This document shows, piece after piece, positions 13,186-26,298 of a stretch of 64,000 nt of DNA. A program made the position numbers and the translations under genes. Position 1 is the stretch's first letter. Every line of letters begins with the position of its first letter. Under the pieces are notes generated by a model. It searched no databases. It was not told the origin of the DNA and worked only from the letters and a program-made list of their open reading frames with translations. Origin of the DNA: an uncultured bacterium (GTDB lineage: Bacteria; Patescibacteriota; Minisyncoccia; Moranbacterales; UBA2206); the NCBI GenBank assembly GCA_903841185.1, contig CAIMIV010000042.1, positions 11,319 through 75,318 on the forward strand. Reading direction: 5' to 3'.

Positions 13186-14223
13186 ATGGAGATTAAAAAA
13201 ATACAAGACATGGACATTGCCGGCAAGAATGTTATTTTGCGGGTGGATTTTAATGTGGCCATGGAAGACGGCAAGGTAAAAGAAATGTTTAAGATTATAG
13301 CGGCCAAAGAAACAATTGACTATTTGCTCAGTCGCGATTGTCAGATAGCGCTGATTACTCATCTGGGAAGGCCTGATGGCAAAGTGGATTCGAAATTTTC
13401 TCTGGATCAAATTGCTACGGAGGTGGAAATTATCCTGGGGAGAAAAGTGACTTTTGTTCCGGACTGCATTGGAGAAAAAGTGCAAGCCGCCCTGGAAAAT
13501 TTGGAGGAAGGCGTGCTGCTGCTGGAAAATGTCAGATTTTATGCGGGTGATGAAACCAATGACGCCGCCTTTGCCGGCCAACTGGCGGAGCATTTTGAGG
13601 TGTTTGTGCAGGATGCCTTTAGTGTTTGTCATCGCGACCAGGCTTCAGTGACGGGCATCGCCAAGGTCTTGCCGAGCTGTGCCGGCTTTCGCTTGCTGGA
13701 AGAACTCCATGGCATGACCATTATCAAAGATCATCCCGTGCATCCGGCGGTGGCCATTATCGGTGGCGCTAAGATTGAAACCAAACTTCCGGTGATTAAA
13801 TTTTTTGAAGAAAAATATGATTATATTTTGGTGGGCGGGAAAATTGCCAACGAAGCCTTGGATCAGAAAATTGAATTTTCCGAGAAAGTAATTTTGCCGG
13901 TGGATTTTGTGGATGACCGTCTAGACATCGGACCCAAGACAGTGGAAAAATTCAAAGAGATTATTGCTACGGCCAAGACCATTGCTTGGAACGGGCCGAC
14001 CGGAAAATTTGAAGAGGAAAAATATGCCGTCAGTTCCAATGCGATTTTGGAAGCGGTGATTGACAGCGGGGCTTTTGTTTTGGTGGGCGGAGGAGAAACG
14101 CTGGAAATTTTGGAGAAAAATATCGCCATGGATAAAATCTCCTTTGTTTCCACCGGTGGCGGGGCGATGCTGGACTATTTGTCCGGAGCGGCGATGCCGG
14201 GCATTGATATTTTGCAAAAATAG
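13186..14223 (+). CDS. pgk: phosphoglycerate kinase
   Basis: N-terminal GKNVILRVDFNV, ALITHLGRPDGK, and C-terminal STGGGAMLDYL. Confidence 0.85.
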   Translation: MEIKKIQDMDIAGKNVILRVDFNVAMEDGKVKEMFKIIAAKETIDYLLSRDCQIALITHLGRPDGKVDSKFSLDQIATEVEIILGRKVTFVPDCIGEKVQAALENLEEGVLLLENVRFYAGDETNDAAFAGQLAEHFEVFVQDAFSVCHRDQASVTGIAKVLPSCAGFRLLEELHGMTIIKDHPVHPAVAIIGGAKIETKLPVIKFFEEKYDYILVGGKIANEALDQKIEFSEKVILPVDFVDDRLDIGPKTVEKFKEIIATAKTIAWNGPTGKFEEEKYAVSSNAILEAVIDSGAFVLVGGGETLEILEKNIAMDKISFVSTGGGAMLDYLSGAAMPGIDILQK

Positions 14224-14279: not shown

Positions 14280-16490
14280 TTAGCTAAGGGGAATAATCTT
14301 TAATTCAGTTTCAGTGGAGAAATAGAAGAGATTATTTTTTTCATCTAGGAGGATACTGATCGCTTGTTGCAATTCTGGAAAATAATATTGCTTGATGATT
14401 TGGCCATCTTTGTCGAAATAGACGGCTCTTGCGTTGGCTTTATCAAGAATAAGCATATTGCCATTTTCACTTTCGATGGACAAGCGGAACATCTCCAAAG
14501 GCGTAGTGGTAGTTTCCAATGCAAAGGGCTCTTTTTTGCCTCGGAACAATTTGGTCAGCGCATCTTTTTTAGCGACAAAGACATTTTCATTGATGGAAAA
14601 GTCCATGACGCTGGCTAAATCAAAATCTTCTTTGAGCCAATTGGTTTTTTCGCCAAAGCCACCTTCTGCTCGGGGATAGCGATAGATCTGGTTGGCTTGG
14701 GAGTCTGCCAAATAGAGATAGGTGAGATAGGTGCCCATAGCCACTATATTAGCTGTTGCCGGAATGGTGATGGCATTCTCTTGAAAATTTCCTGAGGTGG
14801 GGCTGAAGGATAATACTTGCTTGTTTTTATTGATGAGAAAGATTAGATTAAGGTCGGCCATGCCTTGGGCGTAGGCGGGTGCGGAAAAACTGGGTGGCAA
14901 AGCAGATTTAGTATTTTTAGCCACATCAATAATTTCCTGAGCAGTGATGATATAGAGCCGGTCATTTAACTTGAGAGTGTTGATAATCGCATTGGTGGTA
15001 TAGACGCTAGTAGCATTTTCCACACGCGTCACATTCTTATCTTTTTCCAAGGGGAGGGCAATGGTTTCCACTATATCGGGAACGGCGGCGGTGTTTTTTT
15101 GCGCCGCTCGTTCATTGAGAAATTGCGCTACAAAAAAAGGCACTATAAAAATGAGGACTAAAACCAAGAGGCCATAGAGTCGTTGTTGATAGTCCATGCG
15201 CAAAACAATGCGTTTGATTTTTTGCAGGCTGGGGGTTAGTTTGGCAGAAAGTGGTTGGAGGACTTGAACTAGGTTTTTTCCCCAGGAAAGTAAGATAGCG
15301 GTATTTTTTTTCGGCCAAACTCGTTGAAAAAGGGAAGTTTTTTCTTTGGGGGGCAGGGATGTTATGACATGGGCAGCTTTTTTTGAAGATGCCGGCTGGG
15401 CATTGGCGGCACTTTGCTTGGGAGTGTATTTTTGCAGTTGACGTTTTCCGCTCCGTGCTACTGTTAGAATCATTTCTTTGGAAAGAGTGGCTTTTTTGAG
15501 GAGGAGTTGACTGGTGTTTTGCAAGAGGAGGGTCACTTTTTCTGTGTAGGGAGTGGTGGGTTCTTTTGGATAATTCTCAGTTTCATAATGATCTTCTTTG
15601 ATATAGATATGTCCGGTTTTTTGATCAATAAACTCAGCTTGAGATTTTTTAATTTCCTCTTGTAATTCTCCCTCCGCTATTGCGAGATTATGATCTTTTT
15701 TGCTGACGGGATGCTTGAAAGCATCATTACTGAAAGCATTAAGTGGCTGAGTGGAGGTTTTTTTGAGAGGAATTTTTTTGAGAGGGGTTTCTTTAGCGCT
15801 AAAATCCACCACCAACACCGCGGCTTTTTCCAACTCTGAACCCAGGGCAGTGCGCAGGAATTGCACGAACTCTTCCTTGGAAAAGCGGAGCGCACTTTTT
15901 TTGATTTCTTCTAGGGAAAAAATGTCAAAAATACTGGAGGTGGTGATAATAAGTTTATCCTCTTCCTCCATTCTGCCACTGGAGACATTGACAAATGTCT
16001 TCAGCGGGTTAGGCTCTCTATCTAGTGGAGAAAGGCCATCGCTGATATCGGTGAAAATTTTAGAGCGCAACAAAAAAGCCGAAGCATTGCCTGCTTGAGA
16101 AAAATGCAATCCATTTTTTTCTGTCACCGCAATCAGGGCATTGAGGTTGCCCAGCCAATCAATATTTTCGTGCTCAGCCAGATTGGAAAGAGCCAGATTG
16201 GCTTTGTGCAATGAGGCTTCCAGGCTTTCGATGGGTCCGCGTTTGGGCTTAGAAAAATATTCCTTTTTAATGATGGAAACCAAATAGTTGACGATATAGG
16301 AAGAATCTTCCGAAGAGTTTGTGACCTCGAAAACTCCTACTAACGTTCCCAGGTTATGACTATCGATGTTTTCCGGCTCCTGGATGAGAATCTGAATGTA
16401 GGGGCATAATTTCTTGTCATGACATACCAAAATACTTTCAAATTCTGGTTTGACTTCGACAATCCGATTGTGGGGTTTTTTTCTGGTCAT
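14280..16490 (-). CDS. membrane protein with N-terminal cytoplasmic PP2C-like (PPM-fold) domain, one TM helix and a C-terminal extracytoplasmic domain
   Basis: 736-aa ORF. The segment LNALIAVTEKNGLHFSQAGNASAFLLRSKIFTDISDG resembles the PPM GDSRAYLLR region but has Asn in place of the metal-binding Asp. The TM segment is LYGLLVLVLIFIVPFFVAQFL. Confidence 0.45.
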   Translation of the reverse strand: MTRKKPHNRIVEVKPEFESILVCHDKKLCPYIQILIQEPENIDSHNLGTLVGVFEVTNSSEDSSYIVNYLVSIIKKEYFSKPKRGPIESLEASLHKANLALSNLAEHENIDWLGNLNALIAVTEKNGLHFSQAGNASAFLLRSKIFTDISDGLSPLDREPNPLKTFVNVSSGRMEEEDKLIITTSSIFDIFSLEEIKKSALRFSKEEFVQFLRTALGSELEKAAVLVVDFSAKETPLKKIPLKKTSTQPLNAFSNDAFKHPVSKKDHNLAIAEGELQEEIKKSQAEFIDQKTGHIYIKEDHYETENYPKEPTTPYTEKVTLLLQNTSQLLLKKATLSKEMILTVARSGKRQLQKYTPKQSAANAQPASSKKAAHVITSLPPKEKTSLFQRVWPKKNTAILLSWGKNLVQVLQPLSAKLTPSLQKIKRIVLRMDYQQRLYGLLVLVLIFIVPFFVAQFLNERAAQKNTAAVPDIVETIALPLEKDKNVTRVENATSVYTTNAIINTLKLNDRLYIITAQEIIDVAKNTKSALPPSFSAPAYAQGMADLNLIFLINKNKQVLSFSPTSGNFQENAITIPATANIVAMGTYLTYLYLADSQANQIYRYPRAEGGFGEKTNWLKEDFDLASVMDFSINENVFVAKKDALTKLFRGKKEPFALETTTTPLEMFRLSIESENGNMLILDKANARAVYFDKDGQIIKQYYFPELQQAISILLDEKNNLFYFSTETELKIIPLS

Positions 16491-16494
16491 AGAT

Positions 16495-16680
16495 TCTTTA
16501 GTAACTGTCTAATATCTCACCGCCATAAAATGGCTTGCCGGCTGAAATCCCGAAATTTCGGCTGCAAAACCTGTAAGCCTCGTCAGGTTGTCACAAACAG
16601 CCATTCATCACCTTCTAGGTTTTTCGCTCGAAATTTCAGGATTTAAACTCGACATGAGATATTAGACAGTTACTTAGATT
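16495..16680. ncRNA. candidate structured ncRNA (6S-like extended hairpin) or MITE-like element with 22-bp terminal inverted repeats
   Basis: agtaactgtctaatatctca at the 5' end pairs with tgagatattagacagttact at the 3' end. A second nested 16-bp stem (gaaatcccgaaatttcg / cgaaatttcaggattt) and an apical hairpin (aacctg..caggtt) lie inside. The element sits between divergent genes. Confidence 0.35.
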
Positions 16681-16861
16681 CGTCTTTATTATAGCATAAA
16701 TTACCCAGAGAGGATATTTTTTGTGCCTGAGCGAGGGAAAGGATAGGAAATACCTCTATATTGTAGCATTTCTATGGGTTTACTTTTTGCCTGACAACCA
16801 CTATACTATATACATAGATAGCTTGTAACGTAGACCATTATAAATATTTAAGATTAACTCT

Positions 16862-17461
16862 ATGTCGTCAGAAGTTTTAGAAATCCTTTTTGGTTCCAAA
16901 GAAAAAGCGCGTCTGTTGAGATTTTTTTTGCAGAATCCCGGTCAAGACTATGCTTACGCTGAGGTAGTGCGGAGAAATATGTTTCGAGGGAATGTTAAAA
17001 AGGAAATGGAGAGCTTAAAAAAGATAAAGTTTATTTTAAGTCGTACTAAGAAAGGCAAAATTTCCTATGTTTTGAATCAGGAGTTTAGTTTTTATCCGGA
17101 GTTGAAAAATCTGATTTCCAAATCCAACGTCTATCCTCAATGCAAAAGCATCGCTACCGTGGAGAAAATCGGCAATATCAAGCTGGCAGCTATTAGTGGA
17201 GTGTTTATTAATTATCCCAAAAGCAAAGCGGATATGATTATTGTAGGGGATGATATCAAACGTACTAAGTTGAAGAGCTTGATGTCCAATTTGGAAGCGG
17301 AGATTGGCAAGGAAATTGATTTTGTATTGATGAACGGAGAAGAGTTTAAATATCGTTTGAATATGCTGGATAAATTTATTTTGGAATTTCTGGAAGGTCC
17401 GCATGAAGAGCTGATTAACAAGATTCCCGGACTGAAACATTTTATTGCTAAACGGAGATAA
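16862..17461 (+). CDS. hypothetical protein with possible N-terminal winged-helix domain
   Basis: 199-aa ORF with good coding texture. N-terminus SKEKARLLRFFLQNPGQDYAYAEVVRR is wHTH-like. Confidence 0.45.
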   Translation: MSSEVLEILFGSKEKARLLRFFLQNPGQDYAYAEVVRRNMFRGNVKKEMESLKKIKFILSRTKKGKISYVLNQEFSFYPELKNLISKSNVYPQCKSIATVEKIGNIKLAAISGVFINYPKSKADMIIVGDDIKRTKLKSLMSNLEAEIGKEIDFVLMNGEEFKYRLNMLDKFILEFLEGPHEELINKIPGLKHFIAKRR

Positions 17462-21674: not shown

Positions 21675-21887
21675 ATGGCAGTAAAAAAAGCAGCAGCTAA
21701 AAAAGTTGCGAAAAAGGTTGTAAAAAAAGTAGCAGCTAAAAAAGTTGTGAAAAAGGTTGTAAAAAAAGTAGCAGCTAAAAAAGTTGTGAAAAAAGTAGCA
21801 GCTAAGAAAGTTGCTAAGAAGGTTGTGAAAAAAGCTGTAAAAAAAGCAGCTCCAAAGAAAAAAGTTGTAGCAAAAAAGAAGAAATAA
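21675..21887 (+). CDS. lysine/alanine-rich histone H1-like nucleoid protein
   Basis: 70 aa composed almost entirely of AAKKV/VVKKV repeats, encoded by ~45-bp tandem DNA repeats. A bidirectional terminator follows. Confidence 0.6.
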   Translation: MAVKKAAAKKVAKKVVKKVAAKKVVKKVVKKVAAKKVVKKVAAKKVAKKVVKKAVKKAAPKKKVVAKKKK

Positions 21888-22954: not shown

Positions 22955-23815
22955 TTAATCCAGTGGGCTTTTGATAGTCTGCAAATTAGTATTGGCCACC
23001 CTGGTGTAGATCTGTGTCGTTTCAAGGCGTGCATGACCCAGCAACTCTTGGATATAGCGAATGCTCGTGCCGGCTTCTAAAAGGTGAGTGGCGAAAGAAT
23101 GGCGCAAGCTGTGGCAAGAAACTTTTTTAGCAATGCCGGCCAGCTCAACTGCTTTTTTAACTATTTTTTCAGCACTTTCAGCAGTCAGATGTCCTTGTCC
23201 ACCAGCTCCAGTAAATAAATAGTCATTTGGCTTCTTCAGGGTTAATTGTTTTTGTAATGTTGGAATGAGTTTTTCAGATAACAGTGTGCAACGATCTTTT
23301 CCTCCCTTACCTTGGCGAACCATAATCATTTTTCTATCCAAATCAAAATCGCACATTCGGATTTTGATTGTCTCACTAACGCGCAGACCTGCCGAATACA
23401 TTAGTGATATCAAAAAATTATGTTTGGGGTTAGTTGTTTTCTCGAGCATTCGTTCAATCTCTTCTTTACTAAGGATTGTCGGCAGATAGTTGGTTTTTTT
23501 GGCACCTTTTATATCAAAGAAAAATTTGCGTTTCAATATTTGACGGTAATAGAATTTAAGGGCATTAAGTGCAACATTCAGGGTGGAATTGGCACAGTCC
23601 TTGTCTTTCAAAGAGATTAGGTATTGGCGAATGTCATCATTGGTTACTAGTTTGGGGCTTTTATCAGTAAATTGCAAAAAAAGCTTATTATAAAGTACAT
23701 AAGACTTTATAGTTTTTGGGCTAAAACCCCTGATTCTCAACTCTTGTTCTAAATTATACAGAGGGTCTCGTTCTTGAGTTGTTGTTTTTCCATCCATATG
23801 ATAGTATGTGTTCAT
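22955..23815 (-). CDS. tyrosine site-specific recombinase, XerC/XerD-like
   Basis: Catalytic residues in RVSE, KGGKDR, HSLRHSFATHLL, LLGH and QIYTRV. Size is 286 aa. Confidence 0.8.
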   Translation of the reverse strand: MNTYYHMDGKTTTQERDPLYNLEQELRIRGFSPKTIKSYVLYNKLFLQFTDKSPKLVTNDDIRQYLISLKDKDCANSTLNVALNALKFYYRQILKRKFFFDIKGAKKTNYLPTILSKEEIERMLEKTTNPKHNFLISLMYSAGLRVSETIKIRMCDFDLDRKMIMVRQGKGGKDRCTLLSEKLIPTLQKQLTLKKPNDYLFTGAGGQGHLTAESAEKIVKKAVELAGIAKKVSCHSLRHSFATHLLEAGTSIRYIQELLGHARLETTQIYTRVANTNLQTIKSPLD

Positions 23816-23894
23816 ATGATAGTTATGATTACATCAAAATCATAGCATAAACCATTGCTCAAGCCAATAACTTAGCAGGTACGAATAAAACTAG

Positions 23895-24189
23895 TTATCG
23901 GAAATAATTTATCACCTATGAATGAAAAATACAAAAAAATAGCCTTATCAGCATATATTCTTACAGCTGCCTATTTATCGACCGTATATAATTTCATTGG
24001 TCTCGTGGGGGCTGATTTTATCTTGGCGATTTTGGTTGCGATTTTACTAAATAGCTTTTTAGCATATCTGATATGGTCGAGTGATAAAACGCGAAAGTAT
24101 TCGGCTATTATTTTGACGATATTATTGTTGTTGGCCGCTCTTCATTTGTTGCCAGTATTTTAAAGGTGGTGATAAATTACATCCGATAA
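23895..24189. repeat. 295-bp unit bounded by 22-bp inverted repeats, enclosing a small ORF
   Basis: Left ttatcggaaataatttatcacc (23895-23916) against the reverse complement of right ggtgataaattacatccgataa (24168-24189) matches at 20 of 22 positions. The enclosed ORF starts 2 nt after the left IR and stops 5 nt before the right IR. Confidence 0.45.
23918..24163 (+). CDS. small membrane protein (2 TM)
   Basis: 81 aa with two hydrophobic helices. Confidence 0.45.
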   Translation: MNEKYKKIALSAYILTAAYLSTVYNFIGLVGADFILAILVAILLNSFLAYLIWSSDKTRKYSAIILTILLLLAALHLLPVF

Positions 24190-24386
24190 CAAAGAATATC
24201 TGGTTCAAAAAATTTGCCACAACTAAAACTAAAAGGAGGGCAAATTTTTCTCTCCCAAATCCCGCACTTTTCCGTTTTGTTGTAATTTAGAGTATAATGA
24301 GATGAATAAATAAATAAGAATATTAAGGTTTTGTGCCTAAAAGCCAAAGTGCAGGACTTCAGATATTCTTAAACGTTAAACGAAAT
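24187..24386 (+). repeat. copy 1 of a ~200-bp island repeat
   Basis: Begins taacaaagaatatctggttc and ends cttaaacgtta. Contains the hairpin aaaaatttgcc..ggcaaattttt with AAGGAGG in the loop and a tagagTATAATgag -10-like box. It is more than 90 percent identical to copies at 24886 and 29396. Confidence 0.7.
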
Positions 24387-24440
24387 TTTGTTCAAAAATA
24401 TTTTTTCATTTTTTATTGAGCCTTTTTGAAATTTTTTTAG

Positions 24441-24486
24441 AAAAAAGAAAGCCCCAGGTGGAATTGAATTTTCCACGAGGGGCTTA
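24441..24486 (-). terminator. rho-independent terminator for minus-strand small gene
   Basis: Hairpin agccccaggtggaa..ttccacgaggggct with a T-run on the minus strand. Confidence 0.45.
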
Positions 24487-24506
24487 GTTGTTGGCGTGTA
24501 ATGCGC

Positions 24507-24749
24507 TTATAAGTAACAAACGGGTCCGTTCTCACCTTTTTTTGTGTAAATTAGTGAAACCATTTGTGCAATAAGGCAGACCAGAAAAAATTCATACCTG
24601 CTTCCATTGATTTTTGGAATGTCAAATACCACGCTTGTGATTGCACTTAACATTCCAATGGTCCCCATAATTACGCCGATCCAGGCAAAAAACGTGTTAT
24701 TTTTATGCCAAATTTCTTTCATTATGACATCCTCCTTTTCGAGTTTCAT
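24507..24749 (-). CDS. small membrane protein
   Basis: 80 aa, two TM helices, followed by a terminator. Confidence 0.4.
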   Translation of the reverse strand: MKLEKEDVIMKEIWHKNNTFFAWIGVIMGTIGMLSAITSVVFDIPKINGSRYEFFLVCLIAQMVSLIYTKKGENGPVCYL

Positions 24750-24885
24750 GGTTTAATGTACTGTTTAACACCAAAATTAGCGTTCAAAGTAGCATAGCAG
24801 AAAACCAGTAACCCGTCAAGCCCACGGCCAAAAAATTTCAAAAAGGCTCTTTTAATAAGGAATATATTTTTGAACAAAACATCGT

Positions 24886-25088
24886 TTAACAAAGAATATC
24901 TGGTTCAAAAAATTTGCCGCAGTTAAAAACTAAAAGGAGGGCAAATTTTTCTCTCCCAAATCCAGCACTTTTCCGTTTTGCTGTAATTTAGAGTATAATG
25001 AGATTAACAAAGTAAATAGGAATATCAAGGTTTTGTGCATAAAAACCAAAGTGCAGGACTTCAGATATTCTTAAACGTTAAGTGAAAT
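24886..25088 (+). repeat. copy 2 of the ~200-bp island repeat
   Basis: Near-identical to copy 1 and lies upstream of the + strand ORF at 25216. Confidence 0.7.
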
Positions 25089-25215
25089 AAATCTTTATCT
25101 TTGTGGAAATTTCGAGCCAGGTTGCGTTGAACCAAGACGAAAATTTGATTTTTTTAAAAGTTTTTCCGCCACAGGCGGGATTATTTGGGGCTATTTTATT
25201 TTTAAATATAAAAAT

Positions 25216-26001
25216 ATGGAAAAAATTAACAAAAGCACAACACTGTTATTAAGTTCTTTTGCATTACTTCTGGTGCTAATCATTGCTGGGGTCATATCTT
25301 TCAAAAAAGAAATATCAACCTTAAAAAAAACACAGCAGTCATTATTACAAGAGAATGCGAAACTAAAGCAGGTCACAATTACTGATTCTCCTCAAAAAGC
25401 TCCCGTTGCTGAAATAACGGTTGGCAGTCCATGCGATGTGAATAATGGAAATATTTTAAATTCTAAGGGTCTGCAATGTTATTTTTATGATAGCTTAGAT
25501 TCAAGTGGAAATGAAATATTTCCTCGACACGGGGTATGGATTAAGCCTGATTTACGAAATATGCAAATTGATTCAAAGCTATATGAAATATATTTTAAGT
25601 CATGGAAAAAATATGTAAGTCCGGATAAAACTATTAGTTTTTCTTACCCACAAAACTGGAAAGTTGATGAGTCAAGTTGGAAGGATGGTAACTTATCTAT
25701 ACAATCAAGTGACTATTCACCGATATCAATTTCTAAGATTGAAAATAATGCTATTACAATAGAGCAGAGAATTAGTGATGATGAAAATGATAGACCATTT
25801 GAGAGAACTATTATCGAATTAAATGGCGTTAGTGGCACGAGACTCGACATCGCCCCAAAAGATAATTTAAGTGACCAAGAGCAAATAAAATTCTATTTTC
25901 AAAAGGATAAATATTACGTTGAATTAAGTGTTGCAAAAGCTGGATATGCTGCGTATGATTTTCCGACAGAATATTTATTGAGTACGATAAAAATAAAATA
26001 G
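25216..26001 (+). CDS. secreted or membrane-anchored hypothetical protein
   Basis: 261 aa with an N-terminal signal/anchor helix and no recognisable domain. Confidence 0.5.
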   Translation: MEKINKSTTLLLSSFALLLVLIIAGVISFKKEISTLKKTQQSLLQENAKLKQVTITDSPQKAPVAEITVGSPCDVNNGNILNSKGLQCYFYDSLDSSGNEIFPRHGVWIKPDLRNMQIDSKLYEIYFKSWKKYVSPDKTISFSYPQNWKVDESSWKDGNLSIQSSDYSPISISKIENNAITIEQRISDDENDRPFERTIIELNGVSGTRLDIAPKDNLSDQEQIKFYFQKDKYYVELSVAKAGYAAYDFPTEYLLSTIKIK

Positions 26002-26117
26002 CCCCAAATAATTGTTTTGCCATTCTGCAAAACAAAAACTTTTAAAAAAAATCAAATTTTCTATTAGCATGGATAAAGTTTGTGCTAATAAAAATGAAGA
26101 TAAAAATTTACATCACT

Positions 26118-26298
26118 TAACACGGCATATGCGGTTCAAAAATTTTGCGCTATTATATTTCAAGGAGTGCAAAATTTCCTCTCCCAAATTGCGCTGACGG
26201 AATGGCAAGTTTAGTGATATAATCAAGATAAGCGAAATTAACAAAATAATCAATCAATCCACGGCGCAACTTCGCATGTGCCGATACGTTAGACGAAA
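26118..26298 (+). repeat. diverged copy 3 of the island repeat
   Basis: Shares the start tacatcacttaac, a hairpin with compensatory changes (aattttgc/gcaaaatt), AAGGAG in the loop, ctctccc and a gtgaTATAATc box. It ends cgttagacgaaat. Confidence 0.5.

What the first reader, a model, noticed from the sequence alone, without database searches (positions are those of the whole stretch)
16495..16680. A ~185-nt element with 22-bp terminal inverted repeats and nested stems in a divergent promoter region (6S-RNA-like or MITE-like)
The outer 20-22-bp perfect stem, an inner 16-bp stem and an apical hairpin give an extended rod with internal bubbles. This resembles the 6S RNA architecture. The terminal inverted repeats are equally compatible with a miniature transposable element. 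No ORF is present, and it sits between the start of the minus-strand 736-aa gene and the next plus-strand gene.
Basis: seen in the sequence. Interest (0 to 1): 0.55.

Follow-up and report, generated by a model that had tools for sequence, protein, structure and literature searches.

The report
Small hairpin transposon (MITE) in Moranbacteria
The 175-base hairpin is a miniature, non-coding jumping-gene remnant (a MITE of the IS5/IS1031 type) that landed in the leader of a gene in a Moranbacteria (candidate phyla radiation) genome; it is not a 6S RNA, and it is an ordinary kind of element in a little-studied host group.

Summary
A perfect 20-nt inverted repeat (16500-16519 / 16655-16674) encloses further nested stems, and the fold z-score is about -10 on both strands.

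The 6S RNA reading fails. No Rfam family matches, the element is absent from orthologous loci, and it occurs at unrelated sites.

The MITE reading holds:
- The element is 173 nt (16501-16673) with 19-nt terminal inverted repeats, GTAACTGTCTAATATCTCA.
- All four complete copies carry a 3-bp TTA/TAA target-site duplication.
- I found five insertion sites in three Moranbacteria genomes.
- Two sites have empty counterparts in relatives. At the window's own locus, three orthologous loci carry a single TAA exactly where the window has TAA-element-TAA.

The TNA duplication and the ends point to the IS1031 subgroup of the IS5 family. The ends are 14-15/17 identical to those of ISLrh (GAACCTGTCTAGTATCT). 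No partner transposase was found in any DNA I could reach.

In the window the element lies 11 nt downstream of a conserved extended -10 box (TGCTATAAT) and 7 nt upstream of the start codon of the 736-aa gene. It is therefore probably transcribed as a long 5'-leader hairpin.

Three copies show 10 compensatory pair changes, so the palindrome appears to be maintained, with no consistent strand bias.

Verdict: a new member of a known kind, of modest interest.

The parts
16501..16673 (.). MITE body, 173 nt, a near-complete palindrome. In the orientation used to compare copies it reads 5'-GTAACTGTCTAATATCTCATGTCGAG... on the window's minus strand.
   Evidence: The boundaries come from the empty-site alignment with orthologous loci L011, L013 and L016 and from the alignment of copies. 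nhmmer finds the same element in L001-L004.
16498..16500 (.). Left target-site duplication, TTA on the + strand (TAA on the - strand).
   Evidence: Read from the sequence. The empty sites carry a single TAA here.
16674..16676 (.). Right target-site duplication, TTA on the + strand.
   Evidence: Read from the sequence. The same 3-bp TWA duplication flanks the copies in L002, L003 and L004.
16501..16519 (+). Left terminal inverted repeat, GTAACTGTCTAATATCTCA (19 nt). The A of the duplication makes the repeat look 20 nt long.
   Evidence: Perfect inverted repeat. It is 14/17 identical to the ISLrh repeat GAACCTGTCTAGTATCT.
16655..16673 (-). Right terminal inverted repeat, the same 19 nt on the minus strand.
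   Evidence: This end is identical in the window, L001, L002, L003 and L004.
16545..16577 (.). Inner arm of the long hairpin. It pairs with 16612-16644.
   Evidence: Inverted repeat I1, 33 nt, 79% complementary. Compensatory changes occur between copies.
16612..16644 (.). Inner arm of the long hairpin. It pairs with 16545-16577.
16522..16534 (.). Side hairpin GCCATAAAATGGC, present in one arm only. It makes the element asymmetric and is kept in every copy that covers this arm, including the 91-nt derivative.
   Evidence: Folds, alignment of copies and helix 5.
16688..16696 (-). Extended -10 promoter box TGCTATAAT of the 736-aa gene, 11 nt upstream of the insertion point.
   Evidence: These columns are invariant across four orthologous loci in an otherwise variable spacer. 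Its function as a promoter is inferred, not shown.
14280..16490 (-). 736-aa gene for a conserved Moranbacteria protein with no Pfam domain. The element sits in its predicted 5' leader, and the start codon lies 7 nt beyond the duplication.
   Evidence: ORF list, Pfam result, homologues.
16862..17461 (+). Divergent 199-aa gene. Together with the 736-aa gene it forms the conserved gene pair used for the empty-site test.
16663..16692 (+). Promoter-like match made of TAGACA inside the right terminal repeat, an 18-nt spacer, and TATTAT in the flank. It faces outward towards the 199-aa gene. This is a consensus match only.

Best explanation

Mechanism (inferred). A DDE transposase supplied in trans binds the two 19-nt terminal inverted repeats. 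It cuts the target with a 3-nt stagger at 5'-TWA-3' and joins the element in, and repair of the stagger produces the TTA/TAA duplication. The TNA target and the end sequence match the IS1031 subgroup of the IS5 family, so the mobilising enzyme is most likely an IS1031-type transposase. That enzyme was not found.

Hosts (shown). All three host genomes are Candidatus Moranbacteria, in the candidate phyla radiation (Patescibacteria).

Effect in the window (inferred). The element landed at a TAA between the conserved extended -10 box and the ribosome-binding site of the 736-aa gene. That places it about 5 nt downstream of the predicted transcription start. The gene's short leader of about 15 nt would then have become a leader of about 190 nt whose first part is a hairpin of about -80 kcal/mol. 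The ribosome-binding region and AUG lie just outside the stem and the ORF is intact, so the insertion is tolerated. It may alter mRNA stability or processing.

What is shown and what is inferred:
- Shown: terminal repeats, target-site duplications, several insertion sites, empty sites, similarity of the ends to IS1031-group elements.
- Inferred: the identity of the transposase, transcription of the element, and any effect on expression.
For: Terminal repeats:
- Perfect 20-nt inverted repeat, unique in the window.

Copies elsewhere:
- A search with the exact 20-mer found copies in three contigs of MAG DYDB01 and in Moranbacteria UBA2282, each with different flanks.
- DYDB01 is titled 'Micavibrio sp.', but its EF-G is closest to named Moranbacteria/Moraniibacteriota sequences and its loci are about 40% G+C.
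- One DYDB01 contig breaks inside the element, as assemblies do at repeats.

Target-site duplications:
- TTA/TTA in the window and in L002, TAA/TAA in L003 and L004.
- The chance of four 3/3 flank matches is about 1e-7, and of four TWA sites about 7e-6.

Empty site 1:
- The same divergent 199-aa / 736-aa gene pair in L011, L013 and L016 (736-aa orthologues 74%, 61% and 61% identical) has spacers of 192, 174 and 169 nt, against 371 nt in the window.
- The alignment shows ...TGCTATAATAAAGAAGAATC-TAA-GGAATCTATG in L011 against ...GAATC-TAA-[173 nt]-TAA-AGAATCTATG in the window.

Empty site 2:
- The L001 copy abuts the TAA that aligns with the rpsG stop codon of the relatives.
- Relatives L018, L021 and L022 have an uninterrupted 42-68-nt rpsG-DUF1189 spacer.

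Family assignment:
- ISLrh belongs to the IS1031 subgroup of the IS5 family. It has 17-bp repeats GAACCTGTCTAGTATCT and inserts at TNA with a 3-bp duplication (PMC12016507).
- The MITE ends match it at 14/17, and the L003 variant at 15/17 (binomial p about 1e-5 to 1e-6).
- Six IS1031-type elements fetched from plasmids are all flanked by TTA, TAA or TCA, and their ends start GA(A/G)NC(T/C)G.

Not an Rfam family:
- No Rfam family matches.
Against: - No transposase gene was found in the window (Pfam on 26 ORFs).
- tblastn with the ISLrh ORFs found none in about 500 kb of held DNA.
- No full-length element with these ends turned up among 185,579 species-representative genomes.
- Only five insertion sites are known, and only one in 64 kb of this genome, so this is a low-copy family.
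- Copies within one genome are only 89-93% identical, so the activity may be old.
- Conservation of the whole palindrome goes beyond what transposase binding to the ends requires.
- Transcription of the element is not shown.
Confidence: 0.9

Rival explanations
1. It is a 6S RNA or another stand-alone structured small RNA gene, transcribed from the divergent promoter region and acting through its rod-like fold.
For: The length (about 180 nt) and the extended rod with internal loops resemble the 6S outline. The fold is very stable.
Against: - No 6S or other Rfam match, even at E <= 10.
- Absent from the orthologous spacer in three relatives.
- Present at unrelated loci, in either orientation relative to genes.
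- Flanked by target-site duplications.
- No large central bubble.
- No consistent strand bias in folding energy or G-U pairs among copies.
Confidence: 0.02
2. It is a MITE that has been co-opted. The full-length hairpin would be kept by selection because it acts as an RNA or DNA module, for example a 5'-leader stabiliser, an RNase III processing site, or a source of an outward promoter, as reported for Correia and bcr1 elements.
For: - 10 of 70 pairs show compensatory double changes among three copies, against 3.7 +/- 1.5 in shuffles (0/500) and 0-1 in slid controls. One pair shows three different Watson-Crick types.
- The window copy lies inside a predicted 5' leader, and the L001 copy lies inside the rpsL-rpsG-fusA gene cluster.
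- The TAGACA in each terminal repeat gives promoter-like matches with flank -10 boxes in the window and, read by eye, in L002.
Against: - Only three full copies from two lineages, so the covariation test is weak.
- The orientation relative to host genes is not consistent.
- Folding energy favours different strands in different copies.
- Arm-to-arm correction within a palindrome, or matching transposase sites in both arms, could give the same pattern without any host function.
- There are no expression data.
Confidence: 0.2
3. It is a MITE mobilised by a transposase family other than IS5/IS1031, for example IS630/Tc1-mariner (TA duplication) or IS30 (2-3-bp duplication).
For: No partner transposase was found, so the assignment rests on ends and target only. 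The end contains CAGT, which is reminiscent of Tc1-type termini (my own recollection, not tested).
Against: - A 2-bp TA model places the element boundaries inconsistently between the window copy and L002, whereas the 3-bp TWA model fits all copies and the empty site.
- The ends are 14-15/17 identical to an IS1031-subgroup element, and all six IS1031-type elements examined show TNA flanks.
Confidence: 0.08

Closest known systems
IS1031 subgroup of the IS5 family (for example ISLrh of Lacticaseibacillus rhamnosus), and MITEs derived from such elements
   Same: Both make a 3-bp duplication of a TNA target. The terminal repeats are closely similar: GTAACTGTCTAATATCT here against GAACCTGTCTAGTATCT in ISLrh, 14-15/17 identical (PMC12016507).
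   Different: This element has no transposase gene and is 173 nt rather than about 860 nt. The whole element is a palindrome, not just its ends. The hosts are Moranbacteria, whereas the closest ends come from Lactobacillales. No autonomous partner is known.
Tourist-type MITEs of the PIF/Harbinger superfamily in eukaryotes
   Same: They make a TWA (TTA/TAA) 3-bp duplication, are short and non-coding, and have terminal inverted repeats. PIF/Harbinger transposases are related to the bacterial IS5 family (PMC4482050, PMC12730594).
   Different: They occur in eukaryotes, have different end sequences, and their autonomous partners carry a second Myb-like ORF.
Nezha MITE of Anabaena and Nostoc
   Same: It is 130-170 bp, forms a stable hairpin, and was validated by filled and empty sites in related genomes. 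Its ends are shared with an insertion sequence (ISNpu3) that is not found in the same genome (PMC3184786).
   Different: Different sequence and host phylum. I did not verify its duplication or its IS family.
Correia elements (Neisseria) and bcr1 (Bacillus cereus group)
   Same: These are small palindromic MITEs, often on the 5' side of genes. They are transcribed with neighbouring genes. Correia elements carry promoters, and bcr1 shows compensatory changes that keep its structure (PMC3184786).
   Different: Correia elements have 26-bp repeats (PMC3184786 reference list) and, from my recollection, a TA duplication, while bcr1 has 5-bp direct repeats. There is no sequence similarity, and their effects on expression are experimentally documented whereas here they are inferred.
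6S RNA
   Same: Similar length and an elongated, mostly double-stranded fold.
   Different: No covariance-model match, no central bubble, multi-copy, mobile, and absent from orthologous loci.

Membership tests
MITE (non-autonomous DNA transposon) | Terminal inverted repeats of at least 10-15 bp | tested here: met
   19-nt perfect repeats (20 nt counting the duplication base). They are conserved in all copies.
MITE (non-autonomous DNA transposon) | Target-site duplication flanking each copy | tested here: met
   TTA/TTA or TAA/TAA in four of four complete copies.
MITE (non-autonomous DNA transposon) | Several copies at unrelated loci | tested here: met
   Five insertion sites in three genomes. 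Only one copy lies in the 64-kb window, and the copy number in the source genome is unknown.
MITE (non-autonomous DNA transposon) | Filled versus empty orthologous sites differing by the element plus one copy of the duplication | tested here: met
   The window locus against L011, L013 and L016. The right junction of L001 against L018, L021 and L022.
MITE (non-autonomous DNA transposon) | Small and without coding capacity | tested here: met
   173 nt. The only overlapping ORF is mechanical and has no Pfam match.
MITE (non-autonomous DNA transposon) | Mobilised in trans by a transposase that recognises the same ends | not testable with these tools
   No transposase was found in the window or in any locus.
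IS5 family, IS1031 subgroup (as source of the ends) | Exclusive 3-bp duplication at 5'-TNA-3' | tested here: met
   TTA or TAA at every site. The rule is stated in PMC12016507 and is seen in six fetched elements.
IS5 family, IS1031 subgroup (as source of the ends) | Terminal repeats like those of subgroup members | tested here: met
   14-15/17 to ISLrh and 15/19 to an element from Lactiplantibacillus plantarum. Only 5-9 matches to proteobacterial and cyanobacterial members.
IS5 family, IS1031 subgroup (as source of the ends) | A cognate IS1031-type transposase in the same or a related genome | not tested
   Only 8-kb loci of the other host genomes and 64 kb of this one were available. None was seen there.
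6S RNA (Rfam RF00013 and related models) | Match to the covariance model | tested here: not met
   No match at gathering score across the window, or at E <= 10 in 16300-16900.
6S RNA (Rfam RF00013 and related models) | A single conserved gene at a syntenic position in related genomes | tested here: not met
   Absent from the orthologous spacer in L011, L013 and L016. Several copies occur within one MAG.
6S RNA (Rfam RF00013 and related models) | A large central bubble mimicking an open promoter | tested here: not met
   The predicted folds are almost continuously paired, with only 1-3-nt bulges below the apical region.
IS200/IS605-derived palindromic elements, or REP elements | No terminal inverted repeats and no target-site duplication; insertion next to a fixed tetra- or pentanucleotide | tested here: not met
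   This element has terminal repeats and a 3-bp duplication.

The most novel reading that the evidence does not exclude
The element is more than a decaying transposon relic. Its full 80-bp-arm palindrome would be kept by selection in Moranbacteria, either because the unseen CPR transposase needs the whole hairpin or because host genes use it as a structured 5' leader or processing module. Since no partner with these ends exists in 185,579 representative genomes, it might be mobilised by an enzyme from outside the cell lineage, for example from a host bacterium or a phage of these episymbionts.
Probability: 0.12. Interest if true: 0.55.

Novelty: new member of a known kind. Interest (0 to 1): 0.3.

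Why it matters
Candidate-phyla-radiation bacteria have very small genomes, and their mobile elements are little described. My two text searches found no paper describing MITEs in them, and a survey of 183,232 genomes does not mention them in its main text.

This element gives a cleanly documented transposition event in that group, with a filled site, empty sites and a target duplication. It also places an IS1031-type transposition system in or near Moranbacteria.

In practical terms, it explains a contig break in a public MAG, and it warns annotators not to call this hairpin a small RNA gene.

If the leader hairpin affects expression of the 736-aa gene, it would be an example of transposon-driven regulatory change in a reduced genome. 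That remains untested.

Tried and rejected
- 6S or other known RNA: Rfam at gathering score on the whole window, and at E <= 10 on 16300-16900, gave only chance-level hits (CRISPR-DR31 at 17 bits, and similar).
- Strand-specific RNA structure: folding energy favours the element's sense strand in the window, neither strand in L002, and the antisense strand in L003. My hand tally of the pair types gives 9 G-U cells against 5 A-C cells, so no strand bias is supported.
- The 'TAGATTC' flank repeat as a target-site duplication: rejected, because it is already present in the empty sites.
- A 2-bp TA duplication model: rejected, because it gives inconsistent element boundaries between copies.
- More copies: a JGI metagenome scan gave one chance match and a viral scan gave none. 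nhmmer on about 200 kb of loci from related genomes found nothing new. blastn against plasmids and phages found nothing.
- Autonomous partner:
  - Pfam on 26 window ORFs found only a tyrosine recombinase and no DDE transposase.
  - tblastn with ISLrh ORF A and ORF B against all held DNA gave only a chance hit containing a stop codon.
  - A viral scan with a degenerate end pattern gave 22 single matches without partner ends. The one I checked lies inside a coding sequence.
- I ran no further search on a transposase query. Its best 120 hits would have been close relatives of the query from Lactobacillales, not CPR sequences.

Full report
**1. Observation**

- The repeat finder reports a perfect 20-nt inverted repeat at 16500-16519 / 16655-16674, 135 nt apart. 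It also reports an inner pair of 33-nt arms at 16545-16577 / 16612-16644, 79% complementary.
- The 20-mer occurs nowhere else in the window, even with three mismatches allowed, and in none of 100 shuffles.
- Either strand folds into a long rod. The + strand gives -71.5 kcal/mol (z = -9.9) and the - strand gives -83.3 kcal/mol (z = -10.5).
- The element lies between the divergent 736-aa gene (14280-16490, minus) and 199-aa gene (16862-17461, plus).

**2. Not a known RNA**

Rfam finds only two tRNAs in the whole window at gathering score. In 16300-16900 it finds nothing better than 17 bits at E <= 10. There is no 6S match.

**3. Other copies**

An exact search for the 20-mer in one genome per species (185,579 species) returned four loci.
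- Three loci are on different contigs of MAG DYDB01, titled 'Micavibrio sp. IMS_BF-2'. One is in Candidatus Moranbacteria UBA2282.
- L002 and L003 hold full-length copies.
- L001 starts in the middle of a copy, so the contig broke at the repeat.
- L004 holds a 91-nt internal-deletion derivative.
- The flanking genes differ at every site.
- EF-G of the 'Micavibrio' MAG is up to 86% identical to sequences named Moranbacteria or Moraniibacteriota, and its loci are about 40% G+C. It is therefore also a Moranbacteria genome.
- The window organism is Moranbacteria as well, judged from homologues of the 736-aa protein.
- The JGI metagenome scan gave only a chance match and the viral scan gave none. 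nhmmer found no further copies in the loci I held.

**4. Target-site duplication**

With the element defined as GTAAC...GTTAC, every complete copy is flanked by the same trinucleotide on both sides.
- The window and L002 have TTA/TTA. L003 and L004 have TAA/TAA on their + strands.
- A 2-bp TA model gives inconsistent boundaries between copies.
- The chance of four 3/3 flank matches is about 1e-7, and of four TWA sites about 7e-6.
- In L004 the TAA is the stop codon of the upstream gene. In L001 the TAA abutting the element aligns with the rpsG stop codon of the relatives.

**5. Empty sites**

- Contigs carrying proteins identical to the window's all carry the element, with a 371-nt spacer.
- More distant orthologues of the 736-aa protein (74%, 61% and 61% identity) sit in the same divergent pair with the 199-aa gene. 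Their spacers are 192, 174 and 169 nt.
- The alignment shows L011 as ...TGCTATAATAAAGAAGAATC-TAA-GGAATCTATGACC. The window (minus strand) reads ...TGCTATAATAAAGACGAATC-TAA-[173 nt]-TAA-AGAATCTATGACC.
- This is a clean insertion of the element plus 3 bp.
- The GAATCTA repeat seen on both flanks already exists in the empty sites, so it is not the duplication.
- A second case: relatives of the DYDB01 MAG have an uninterrupted 42-68-nt rpsG-DUF1189 spacer where L001 carries the element next to a TAA.

**6. Family**

- A paper on ISLrh states that this 857-bp element of the IS1031 subgroup of the IS5 family has 17-bp terminal repeats GAACCTGTCTAGTATCT. It also states that IS1031-group members insert at 5'-TNA-3' and make an exclusive 3-bp repeat (PMC12016507).
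- The MITE ends, GTAACTGTCTAATATCT(CA), match at 14/17, and the L003 variant at 15/17 (binomial p about 1e-5 to 1e-6).
- I fetched an ISLrh copy and five relatives from plasmids and located their ends. All are flanked by TTA, TAA or TCA, and their ends start GA(A/G)NC(T/C)G.
- The Lactobacillales elements are closest to the MITE (14/17 and 15/19). Proteobacterial and cyanobacterial ones are distant (5-9 matches).
- PIF/Harbinger transposons, the eukaryotic relatives of IS5, also duplicate TWA (PMC4482050).
- The element is therefore best read as an IS1031-type MITE.

**7. Partner transposase not found**

- Pfam scans of 26 window ORFs found no DDE transposase. The only recombinase is a tyrosine recombinase at 22955-23815.
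- tblastn with the ISLrh ORFs against all held DNA gave only a chance hit.
- A degenerate end pattern in viral contigs gave 22 single matches without partner ends.
- No full-length element with the exact ends exists among the species representatives.

**8. Structure conservation**

- There are two subfamilies. The window copy and the L004 derivative are 93% identical over the aligned part. The DYDB01 copies are 89-93% identical to one another. The subfamilies are 74-86% identical to each other, and the window's full-length copy is 76-79% identical to the full DYDB01 copies.
- The ends are nearly invariant.
- On the three full copies, RNAalifold predicts 70 pairs.
- Ten of those pairs carry compensatory double changes, against 3.7 +/- 1.5 in shuffles (0/500) and 0-1 in slid controls. 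One pair appears as A-U, C-G and G-C in the three copies.
- A side hairpin present in one arm only is shared by every copy that covers that arm. The common ancestor was therefore already asymmetric, and pairing was kept afterwards.
- There is no consistent strand preference. Sense versus antisense energies are -80.6/-67.8, -78.5/-76.3 and -61.2/-67.9 kcal/mol. The orientation relative to neighbouring genes also varies.
- The constraint therefore looks like a DNA-level palindrome, or acts on both transcripts. Arm-to-arm correction is an alternative that needs no selection. With three sequences this test is weak.

**9. Local consequence in the window (inferred)**

- TGCTATAAT, an extended -10 box, is invariant in all four orthologous spacers. 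It lies 11 nt upstream of the duplicated TAA.
- A start about 7 nt downstream of the box would put the whole element into the 5' leader of the 736-aa mRNA.
- The stem ends 10 nt before the AUG.
- The ribosome-binding motif reads AAAGA in the window and AAGGA in the three relatives.
- No terminator-like site is present.
- Stable 5'-proximal hairpins are known from other bacteria to protect mRNAs from 5'-end-dependent decay. Long perfect duplexes are RNase III substrates, as I recall for Correia elements; this was not checked in any paper I read. Which of these applies here is unknown.
- The TAGACA inside each terminal repeat forms a promoter-like match with a flank -10 box on the + strand (16663-16692). 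Read by eye, the same happens upstream of the gene next to the L002 copy. These are consensus matches only.

**10. Comparison and verdict**

- The element behaves like well-known bacterial MITEs. Nezha was validated by filled and empty sites, and its ends are shared with an insertion sequence from another species. bcr1 shows compensatory changes. Correia elements lie 5' of genes and carry promoters (PMC3184786).
- Two text searches found no paper describing MITEs in CPR or Patescibacteria. A large prokaryotic MITE survey does not mention these groups in its main text.
- It is a new family of a known kind in an under-studied phylum.

Noticed in passing
window 23890-26200, next to 22955-23815 (-): A non-coding unit of about 215 nt occurs three times as a direct repeat (24174-24386; 24874-25088, pieces 79-95% identical; partial at 26105-26194). 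The two full units contain a TATAAT (-10-like) box. Between the units lie small ORFs: 81 aa, 80 aa and a 261-aa PsbP_2-like ORF. Each ORF is bracketed by its own inverted repeats, including a perfect 25-mer at 25180-25204 / 25988-26012. A tyrosine recombinase gene (Phage_integrase plus Phage_int_SAM_4) lies beside the array. The layout looks cassette-like or like invertible segments.
   Followed up: partly
window 21675-21887 (+): A 70-aa ORF made almost entirely of lysine/alanine/valine repeats (KKVAKKVVKK...), built from 12- and 27-nt DNA repeats. It resembles a histone-H1-like or HU-tail-like basic protein.
   Followed up: no
L001-L003 (GenBank DYDB01000001, DYDB01000006 and DYDB01000007): The MAG titled 'Micavibrio sp. 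isolate IMS_BF-2' appears mislabelled. Its loci are about 40% G+C, and its EF-G is up to 86% identical to sequences named Candidatus Moranbacteria or Moraniibacteriota.
   Followed up: partly
L004 1868-1880 and L001 85-90: The L004 copy uses the TAA stop codon of the upstream gene as its target, so the duplication restores the stop codon. The L001 copy abuts a TAA that aligns with the rpsG stop codon of relatives, inside the rpsL-rpsG-DUF1189-fusA cluster.
   Followed up: yes
flanks of the L001, L003 and L004 copies: On one side of the element, three of five sites read TTA followed within 0-3 nt by (T/G)GCAAA. The L001 flank is inferred from its relatives. This may be an extended target preference, or chance in AT-rich spacers. 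It was read by eye.
   Followed up: no
window 16491-16497 (minus-strand leader of the 736-aa gene): The ribosome-binding motif is AAGGA in all three orthologous loci without the element, but AAAGA in the window copy that carries it. This could be coincidence or a change after the insertion.
   Followed up: no
window 13186-14223 (+): The phosphoglycerate kinase ORF is 345 aa against a Pfam model of 379 positions, and it matches in two stretches. The same 345-aa form is called in related contigs, so it is probably a genuinely short CPR variant rather than a frameshift.
   Followed up: no
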